A stretch of 64,000 bases of DNA. Origin: Escherichia coli (GTDB lineage: Bacteria; Pseudomonadota; Gammaproteobacteria; Enterobacterales; Enterobacteriaceae). The notes under the pieces were generated by a model that was not told where the DNA came from, ran no database searches, and saw only the letters and a program-made list of their open reading frames with translations. Location: the NCBI RefSeq assembly GCF_013122565.1, contig NZ_CP053258.1. One strand, written 5' to 3'. The stretch's first letter is position 1; each line of letters starts with the position of its first letter. Below are positions 46,121-46,357 of this stretch, piece after piece. Made by a program: the position numbers and the translations under genes.

Positions 46121-46357
46121 GGCATTGGGATTTATGCCGTATTCCTGAAGATCCTCATCATTGGAATGGATTTTCGGGCGACAAAAGGATTTTATATGGA
46201 CACTCTGCTCATCATTTCTTCTTCTCATCATCAACAATTCACGTCTCTCTTCCGCGTTTAATAACGGATTATGAGGTGCAAAAAATATCTTTCTTTTCAG
46301 TTACCTGTAATTAGATACAGAGAGAGATTTTGGCAATACATGGAGTAATACAGGATG
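46121..46357 (+). promoter_or_regulatory. pgaA 5' leader with multiple GGA motifs (CsrA-binding type), one overlapping the start codon (caggATG)
   Basis: GGA motifs at ~46166, 46186, 46197, 46266, 46342, 46352; leader length taken from established pgaA biology. Confidence 0.5.

What the first reader, a model, noticed from the sequence alone, without database searches (positions are those of the whole stretch)
46121..46357. pgaA leader carries several GGA motifs including one over the start codon
This fits CsrA-mediated translational repression of PGA synthesis as described for E. coli. It is of note here because a horizontally acquired EAL enzyme and DgcT sit immediately upstream, giving layered control of this operon.
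Basis: established knowledge. Interest (0 to 1): 0.25.

Follow-up and report, generated by a model that had tools for sequence, protein, structure and literature searches.

The report
Known CsrA-controlled pgaA leader, rare variant
This is the well-studied untranslated leader of the E. coli biofilm-polysaccharide operon pgaABCD, which the RNA-binding protein CsrA uses to shut the operon down; it is ordinary, except that this strain carries a very rare single-base change predicted to weaken one regulatory RNA hairpin.

Summary
The window is E. coli chromosome. The 235 nt before the pgaA start codon (46120-46354) match the 234-nt K-12 pgaA leader except for one substitution and one extra A. All eight GGA triplets of K-12 are present. 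One lies in the Shine-Dalgarno sequence (46342-46344) and one ends on the A of the ATG (46353-46355).

CsrA control of this leader was shown experimentally in K-12, so the finding is already known. Besides blocking the ribosome at the two distal sites, CsrA binds two sites at +61..+81, opens a hairpin (+61..+107) that hides a Rho entry site, and so causes premature termination.

The only unusual feature is G63C (window 46182). It breaks the G63-C105 pair at the base of that hairpin. Predicted stability drops from -6.4 to -1.6 kcal/mol. The C allele occurs in 2 of 5426 complete E. coli genomes, against 4114 with G. Its effect is inferred, not shown.

The upstream EAL gene is the known phosphodiesterase PdeT/VmpA. 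It lies in a 31.7-kb low-GC segment that K-12 lost through an IS3-associated deletion.

The parts
46120..46354 (+). pgaA 5' untranslated leader (235 nt), homologous to the K-12 leader +1..+234
   Evidence: Alignment to MG1655 shows one substitution and one 1-nt insertion. Leader length and +1 are taken from Wang 2005 as cited in PMC4052769.
46187..46189 (+). [quoted passage not shown]
   Evidence: PMC4052769 states that +61..+81 holds both 5'-proximal sites. Invariant in 11 E. coli leaders.
46198..46200 (+). GGA of the second mapped CsrA site, K-12 +79
   Evidence: PMC4052769.
46180..46226 (+). [quoted passage not shown]
   Evidence: ViennaRNA folds the K-12 sequence into a hairpin spanning exactly +61..+107, matching the description in PMC4052769. 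Natural variants keep the pairing: one compensatory C82-G88 to U-A change and one GC to GU change.
46182..46182 (+). G63C substitution; breaks the G63-C105 pair in the bottom helix of the hairpin
   Evidence: alignment; hairpin energy -1.6 against -6.4 kcal/mol; the only unpaired cells among 176. C allele in 2 genomes, G allele in 4114, of 5426.
46201..46259 (+). C-rich, G-poor stretch (C 21, G 4 of 59): Rho utilisation (rut) region, identical to K-12
   Evidence: searches (composition; identity), PMC4052769.
46266..46268 (+). GGA at K-12 +147 (AACGGAUUA), the only GGA between the hairpin and the Shine-Dalgarno sequence; probably one of the two middle mapped sites
   Evidence: invariant. Assigning it to a mapped site is inference, because the map exists only in figures that could not be read.
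46280..46285 (+). A6 run (A5 in K-12): homopolymer length polymorphism
   Evidence: A5, A6 and A9 alleles appear. The A6 allele is in 131 of 5426 genomes.
46342..46345 (+). Shine-Dalgarno GGAG, containing the GGA of the fifth mapped CsrA site (K-12 +222)
   Evidence: PMC4052769 and PMC7652899 state that the two distal sites cover the SD and the initiating AUG.
46353..46357 (+). GGA overlapping the start codon (GGATG; K-12 +233), sixth mapped CsrA site. The context AUACAGGAUGU resembles the SELEX consensus RUACARGGAUGU
   Evidence: Consensus as quoted in PMC2896534.
46128..46170 (+). Three further GGA (K-12 +9, +44, +49) upstream of the mapped sites. +9 sits in the loop of a 5'-terminal hairpin; +44 and +49 sit in a long predicted hairpin (+25..+59)
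   Evidence: They are not among the mapped sites if, as PMC4052769 states, the two 5'-proximal sites lie in +61..+81. GGA +44 is lost in strain PapM-32-1.
46355..48778 (+). pgaA coding sequence (807 aa), followed by pgaB 48787-50805 and pgaC 50798-52123
44409..45767 (-). dgcT (ycdT), MASE4-GGDEF diguanylate cyclase, divergent from pgaA, intact
   Evidence: Pfam; 98% amino-acid identity to K-12 DgcT over 452 aa.
42701..44311 (-). CSS-motif EAL phosphodiesterase, ortholog of PdeT/VmpA of O157:H7
   Evidence: Pfam EAL plus CSS-motif. 97% identity to the O157:H7 protein in the same position. PMC4287979 and PMC5897775.

Best explanation
The region is the 5' untranslated leader of the pgaABCD mRNA, and CsrA represses it in two ways.
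1. Translational repression. CsrA dimers bind the GGA-containing sites over the Shine-Dalgarno sequence (46342) and the start codon (46353) and exclude the 30S ribosomal subunit.
2. Transcription attenuation. While the leader is being transcribed, CsrA binds the two sites at 46187 and 46198 in the left arm of an imperfect hairpin (46180-46226). This stops the hairpin from hiding the C-rich rut sequence (from 46201), so Rho terminates transcription inside the leader.

When CsrA is titrated by CsrB, CsrC or McaS, the hairpin forms, Rho is kept out, and the ribosome can load.

Shown here: orthology, 233 of 234 identical bases plus one inserted A, conservation of every GGA, and conservation of the rut sequence. 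Taken from K-12 experiments in the literature: CsrA binding, translational repression and Rho attenuation.

Inferred for this strain only: the rare G63C change removes the central G-C pair of the 5-bp bottom helix. This should leave the rut site more exposed, which would bias the leader toward CsrA-independent termination and lower pga expression. It might also weaken CsrA nucleation at site 1. I put roughly 40% on a measurable effect in that direction.
For: - The locus has the dgcT-pgaABCD organisation of E. coli.
- The leader differs from MG1655 only by G63C and one extra A.
- All eight GGA are retained. Six of them (+49, +68, +79, +147, +222, +233) are invariant in 11 diverse E. coli leaders.
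- ANGGA is enriched, 5 against 1.5 expected, P = 0.009.
- The literature reports six CsrA sites in the 234-nt leader. The two distal ones cover the SD and AUG and are needed for translational repression. +61..+81 holds the two proximal sites and is the left arm of a +61..+107 hairpin that masks rut. Destabilising mutations lower expression in both csrA+ and delta-csrA backgrounds (PMC4052769; PMC7652899).
- ViennaRNA reproduces a hairpin spanning exactly +61..+107 for K-12.
- Natural variation respects the hairpin: a loop change C84A, a compensatory C82-G88 to U-A change, and G69-C99 to G-U.
- The rut stretch has C 21 and G 4 of 59 nt.
- G63C lowers the hairpin MFE from -6.4 to -1.6 kcal/mol and the expected number of left-right arm pairs from 12.9 to 8.1. 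The allele is present in only 2 of 5426 complete genomes.
Against: - Nothing was measured in this strain. CsrA binding, Rho termination and expression all come from K-12 or Salmonella reporter work.
- GGA count alone is not significant against dinucleotide shuffles of the leader (P = 0.07).
- The exact coordinates of the two middle mapped sites could not be retrieved, because they appear only in figures. I therefore cannot exclude that the extra A at 46280-46285 touches one of them. A5, A6 and A9 alleles do coexist naturally.
- For the G63C inference, ViennaRNA energy for K-12 (-6.4) differs from the published Mfold value (9.9 kcal/mol in magnitude), folding is co-transcriptional, and an alternative register (A66-A70 pairing with U100-U104) partly replaces the lost helix.
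- The allele persists in at least three genomes, so it is not obviously deleterious.
Confidence: 0.93

Rival explanations
1. The leader works as in K-12 for translational repression, but G63C has turned the attenuator into a largely CsrA-independent, constitutively terminating element. This lineage would then make little PGA whatever the CsrA activity. This is a modification of the main explanation rather than a true alternative.
For: G63C breaks the middle pair of the 5-bp bottom helix, giving a predicted energy of -1.6 against -6.4 kcal/mol. It accounts for the only unpaired cells in the 11-sequence alignment. In PMC4052769, engineered destabilising mutations lowered pgaA-lacZ in both csrA+ and delta-csrA backgrounds and removed the CsrA requirement for Rho termination in vitro. 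The allele is very rare, 2 of 5426 genomes, while other hairpin variants preserve pairing.
Against: This is a single-base change, whereas the published mutants were double or triple changes. The upper helix and an alternative lower register remain. No expression data exist. The allele is shared by three genomes from different sources, so it is tolerated.
Confidence: 0.35
2. The GGA triplets are a compositional accident of an AT-rich, purine-patchy intergenic region and have no regulatory meaning in this strain.
For: Against dinucleotide-preserving shuffles of the leader, eight GGA gives only P = 0.07. About 1% of equally long windows elsewhere in the 64 kb reach eight.
Against: The sequence is 233/234 identical to a leader in which CsrA sites were footprinted and mutated (PMC4052769, PMC7652899). 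Six GGA are invariant across diverse E. coli, while the neighbouring intergenic DNA upstream of +1 varies. ANGGA is enriched (P = 0.009).
Confidence: 0.02
3. Control is exerted mainly by base-pairing of the small RNA McaS with the leader, or by translation of a short leader ORF starting at the AUG at +77..+79 (window 46196-46198), rather than by CsrA.
For: A presumptive McaS target lies in the right arm. An AUG followed by a 25-codon ORF is present in the leader (PMC4052769).
Against: PMC4052769 reports three relevant results. Deleting the presumptive McaS target did not abolish McaS activation. McaS action requires CsrA. [quoted passage not shown]
Confidence: 0.03

Closest known systems
E. 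coli K-12 pgaABCD mRNA leader (CsrA translational repression, Wang et al. 2005; CsrA-induced Rho-dependent attenuation, Figueroa-Bossi et al. 2014, PMC4052769)
   Same: Same locus, and the same 234-nt sequence apart from two positions. All eight GGA are shared, as are the SD and start-codon sites, the rut sequence and the hairpin arms.
   Different: G63C breaks the G63-C105 pair at the hairpin base and lies 5 nt 5' of the GGA of site 1. The A-run is one A longer (A6 against A5). The leader is 235 nt, not 234.
Other CsrA-repressed leaders with a site over the Shine-Dalgarno sequence (glgC, cstA, nhaR, ycdT/dgcT)
   Same: GGA-containing sites overlap the ribosome-binding site, and a CsrA dimer bridges two sites (PMC7652899).
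   Different: pgaA has the largest number of sites (six) and adds a second, transcription-termination layer that has not been described for those leaders.
PdeT/VmpA, the CSS-domain EAL phosphodiesterase of EHEC O157:H7 (Z1528; Branchu et al. 2012, cited in PMC4287979 and PMC5897775)
   Same: The window ORF 42701-44311 has CSS-motif plus EAL domains, is 97% identical over 536 aa, and sits in the same position immediately downstream of dgcT.
   Different: Here dgcT is intact, whereas in the O157:H7 strain examined it is frameshifted. No functional data exist for this allele.

Membership tests
CsrA-regulated pgaA leader of E. coli | Lies directly 5' of pgaA in a pgaABCD operon divergent from dgcT | tested here: met
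   ORFs and annotation of homologous records; colinear alignment to K-12.
CsrA-regulated pgaA leader of E. coli | Sequence homology to the mapped 234-nt K-12 leader | tested here: met
   233 of 234 identical plus one inserted A.
CsrA-regulated pgaA leader of E. coli | [quoted passage not shown] | tested here: met
   GGAG at 46342-46345 and GGATG at 46353-46357, identical to K-12. Invariant in 11 strains.
CsrA-regulated pgaA leader of E. coli | Two 5'-proximal CsrA sites within +61..+81 | tested here: met
   GGA at 46187 and 46198 are intact. The flanking base +63 is changed from G to C, with unknown effect on affinity.
CsrA-regulated pgaA leader of E. coli | Hairpin +61..+107 of borderline stability that masks the rut site | tested here: inconclusive
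   The arms are present, but G63C breaks one of 16 pairs. Predicted MFE is -1.6 against -6.4 kcal/mol for K-12. Whether the weakened hairpin still masks rut cannot be decided by computation.
CsrA-regulated pgaA leader of E. coli | C-rich, G-poor rut region downstream of the proximal sites | tested here: met
   Window 46201-46259 has C 21 and G 4 of 59 nt and is identical to K-12.
CsrA-regulated pgaA leader of E. coli | Physical binding of CsrA and csrA-dependent expression | not testable with these tools
   This needs gel shift, footprinting and reporter fusions. It has been shown only for the K-12 sequence (PMC4052769, PMC7652899).
PdeT/VmpA (CSS-EAL phosphodiesterase next to dgcT) | CSS-motif periplasmic domain plus EAL domain, adjacent to dgcT, and high identity to the O157:H7 protein | tested here: met
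   Pfam PF12792 and PF00563. 520 of 536 identical to the O157:H7 BB24-1 protein in the same position.

The most novel reading that the evidence does not exclude
G63C is a natural regulatory allele, found here and in only 2 of 5426 complete E. coli genomes. It destabilises the CsrA-gated anti-terminator hairpin, so that Rho termination in the pgaA leader becomes largely constitutive and PGA production is uncoupled from the Csr system. This would be a natural counterpart of the engineered destabilising mutants of Figueroa-Bossi et al.
Probability: 0.35. Interest if true: 0.3.

Novelty: already known. Interest (0 to 1): 0.15.

Why it matters
PGA is a major biofilm adhesin, and its leader is a textbook example of multi-layer CsrA control. 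Finding it here only confirms that the strain has the standard circuit.

The small added value is a rare natural base change in the hairpin, whose 'borderline stability' was proposed to be essential for the switch. If it alters attenuation, it would be a ready-made natural test of that model. It would also be an example of strain-level tuning of biofilm polysaccharide output. The intact PdeT/VmpA and DgcT pair next to the operon marks this strain as having the fuller c-di-GMP module that K-12 lost.

Tried and rejected
1. GGA counting as stand-alone evidence. The count is 3 times the window mean, but P = 0.07 against dinucleotide shuffles of the leader. I relied on homology instead.
2. Retrieving the exact six-site map of Wang et al. 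2005. The paper is not held and Goller 2006 is not held. Other papers give the positions only in figures. Only four of the six sites could be placed from text.
3. Extending the comparison beyond E. coli with a genome-contig scan anchored on the SD and start region. It returned only the E. coli species representative and a 382-bp contaminant contig, so there is no cross-species covariation.
4. Rfam has no family for this leader. The only hit was a chance PYLIS_3 match at E = 0.44.
5. The sigma-70 consensus scan found no + strand promoter upstream of 46120. This does not argue against the mapped start, because the scan is a simple consensus match, and the literature describes the single pgaABCD promoter as activated by NhaR (PMC7652899).
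6. The possibility that the extra A is functionally important. I rejected it as unlikely, because A5, A6 and A9 alleles coexist and A6 is in 131 genomes.
7. The claim that the EAL gene is a recent insertion relative to K-12. I rejected it, because K-12 carries IS3 and a truncated ymdE exactly where the 31.7-kb segment is missing.

Full report
**What is there.** The window is E. coli chromosome. An 807-aa ORF starts at ATG 46355. The 561 nt around it match the pgaA upstream region in 4284 of 5426 complete E. coli genomes. The neighbourhood is colinear with K-12: pgaABCD lies to the right and dgcT runs divergently to the left. The dgcT coding sequence is 44409-45767 on the minus strand and is 98% identical to K-12 DgcT. 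The dgcT-pgaA intergenic region is therefore 45768-46354.

**Checking the observation.** I aligned the window to MG1655. The 234-nt K-12 leader corresponds to window 46120-46354, which is 235 nt. There are only two differences: G63C (window 46182) and one extra A in the A-run (46280-46285, A6 against A5).

All eight GGA triplets of the K-12 leader are present. They start at 46128, 46163, 46168, 46187, 46198, 46266, 46342 and 46353, corresponding to K-12 +9, +44, +49, +68, +79, +147, +222 and +233. GGA 46342 is part of the GGAG Shine-Dalgarno sequence.

As a bare count, eight GGA in 238 nt is about three times the window mean of 2.5 and falls in the top 0.65% of + strand windows. It is not significant against dinucleotide-preserving shuffles of the leader (P = 0.07). 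ANGGA occurs 5 times against 1.5 expected (P = 0.009). The evidence is therefore homology, not counting.

**What it is.** The K-12 leader is experimentally characterised. Wang et al. (2005) mapped six CsrA sites in the 234-nt 5' UTR. [quoted passage not shown]

Figueroa-Bossi et al. (2014, PMC4052769) added a second mechanism. Positions +61..+107 form an imperfect hairpin. Its left arm (+61..+81) carries the two 5'-proximal CsrA sites, and its right arm (+82..+107) is the 5' half of a rut site. When CsrA binds the left arm, nucleating at the first site at the base, the hairpin opens, rut is exposed, and Rho terminates transcription. Mutations that destabilise the hairpin lower expression in both csrA+ and delta-csrA cells. 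Mutations that stabilise it cause read-through.

In window coordinates the left arm is 46180-46200 and the right arm is 46201-46226. The C-rich, G-poor stretch 46201-46259 has C 21 and G 4 of 59 nt. ViennaRNA folds the K-12 sequence into a hairpin spanning exactly +61..+107.

**Conservation.** I aligned eleven leaders chosen across the identity range of E. coli.
- GGA +49, +68, +79, +147, +222 and +233 are invariant.
- GGA +44 is lost in one strain (PapM-32-1).
- The A-run varies (A5, A6, A9). The A6 allele occurs in 131 of 5426 genomes, so that difference is an ordinary homopolymer polymorphism.
- Within the hairpin, natural variants preserve pairing. C84A lies in the loop; genomes with one mismatch in the test 55-mer number 883, and the sampled example carries this change. 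Strain YDC107 carries C82U together with G88A, a compensatory C-G to U-A change. PapM-32-1 carries C99U, turning G69-C99 into G-U.
- The sample is small. The covariation measures are only weakly above controls (44 of 500 shuffles reach the observed value).

**The one unusual feature.** G63C breaks the G63-C105 pair, the central pair of the 5-bp bottom helix. It accounts for the only two unpaired cells among 176 in the alignment, from the window and NCTC9967.
- Predicted MFE of +61..+107 falls from -6.4 kcal/mol (K-12 and most strains; other natural variants give -6.0 and -4.4) to -1.6.
- The expected number of left-arm to right-arm pairs in the +1..+137 ensemble falls from 12.9 to 8.1.
- To measure allele frequency I used 55-mers centred on the SNP, so that every 28-nt megablast seed must span it. 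The C allele occurs in 2 of 5426 complete genomes (LD93-1 and NCTC9967) and the G allele in 4114.
- Those two strains share a pga-region haplotype with the window between about 45400 and 50000, with 0-4 differences per 500 nt against 7-19 for K-12. The allele is therefore probably a single event in one lineage and not a sequencing error.

By analogy with the engineered destabilising mutants, I infer that the rut site is more exposed. Attenuation would then be stronger and less dependent on CsrA. Because +63 lies 5 nt upstream of the GGA of the nucleating site, CsrA affinity could also change.

This is inference only. It concerns a single-base change, an alternative lower register partly compensates, the ViennaRNA and Mfold energies differ, and folding is co-transcriptional. 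I give it about 35-40%.

**The upstream genes.** ORF 42701-44311 (minus strand) has CSS-motif and EAL domains. It is 97% identical to the protein encoded next to dgcT in O157:H7. That protein is the described phosphodiesterase PdeT/VmpA (PMC4287979; PMC5897775). The gene is present in 415 of 5426 genomes.

It lies at the right end of a 31.7-kb segment (window 12670-44397) that is absent from K-12. In K-12, IS3 sits in its place, and ymdE (a full-length 314-aa ORF at 12313-13257 in the window) is truncated at the junction. GC content is 33-37% around the gene. An old horizontal origin is plausible, but K-12's lack of the gene is a deletion.

That c-di-GMP enzymes add a further control layer on PGA is consistent with the literature (PMC7652899). 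It was not tested here.

**Negative results.** Rfam has no family for this leader. A collection scan for the SD and start region found only E. coli. The six-site map itself could not be read, so the two middle sites are not placed. The interval that must contain them differs from K-12 only by the extra A.

**Verdict.** The feature is already known and ordinary. The rare hairpin-breaking G63C allele is a minor, testable curiosity.

Noticed in passing
window 12670-44397: A 31.7-kb segment is absent from K-12 and resembles the O157:H7 arrangement. It carries a fimbrial usher/chaperone operon, fatty-acid-synthesis-like genes, a 1270-aa ORF, an SDR, a winged-helix regulator and pdeT. K-12, LD93-1 and NCTC9967 carry IS3 and a truncated ymdE exactly at its borders, which indicates an IS3-associated deletion.
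   Followed up: partly
L004 8810-10167 (E. coli O157:H7 BB24-1): dgcT is annotated as frameshifted in this O157:H7 strain while the adjacent EAL gene is intact. The window strain has both genes intact.
   Followed up: no
L013 (NZ_JUET01000049.1, 382 bp): A 382-bp contig in a Tannerella forsythia ATCC 43037 assembly contains the exact E. coli pgaA Shine-Dalgarno and start sequence. This is almost certainly E. coli contamination of that assembly.
   Followed up: no
hit H29, NZ_CP168984.1 (strain UTME-3): The pgaA upstream match starts only at query base 144, and the feature next to pgaA is the EAL protein. This suggests a deletion that removed dgcT and part of the intergenic region in that strain.
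   Followed up: no
window 11144-11198: A 55-bp element next to ycdU matches three further spaced copies (about 181 nt apart) in the K-12 and LD93-1 ycdU-serX intergenic region. It looks like a small repeat family whose copy number varies.
   Followed up: no
window 46121-46138: The first 19 nt of the leader form a 5-bp GC-rich hairpin (GGCAU...AUGCC) with GGA +9 in its 8-nt loop. This is the presentation CsrA prefers, yet the site is apparently not among the mapped ones. The tool also flags its reverse complement as a terminator-like site on the minus strand.
   Followed up: partly
window 53400-54400 against L002/L003: The window is nearly identical to LD93-1 and NCTC9967 across the pga promoter and pgaAB. 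Divergence jumps to 29-38 differences per 500 nt around 53400-54400, which suggests a recombination boundary near phoH/efeB.
   Followed up: no
E. coli genome collection: 1142 of 5426 complete E. coli genomes have no match at all to the pgaA promoter and leader region. Seven matches lie on plasmids.
   Followed up: no
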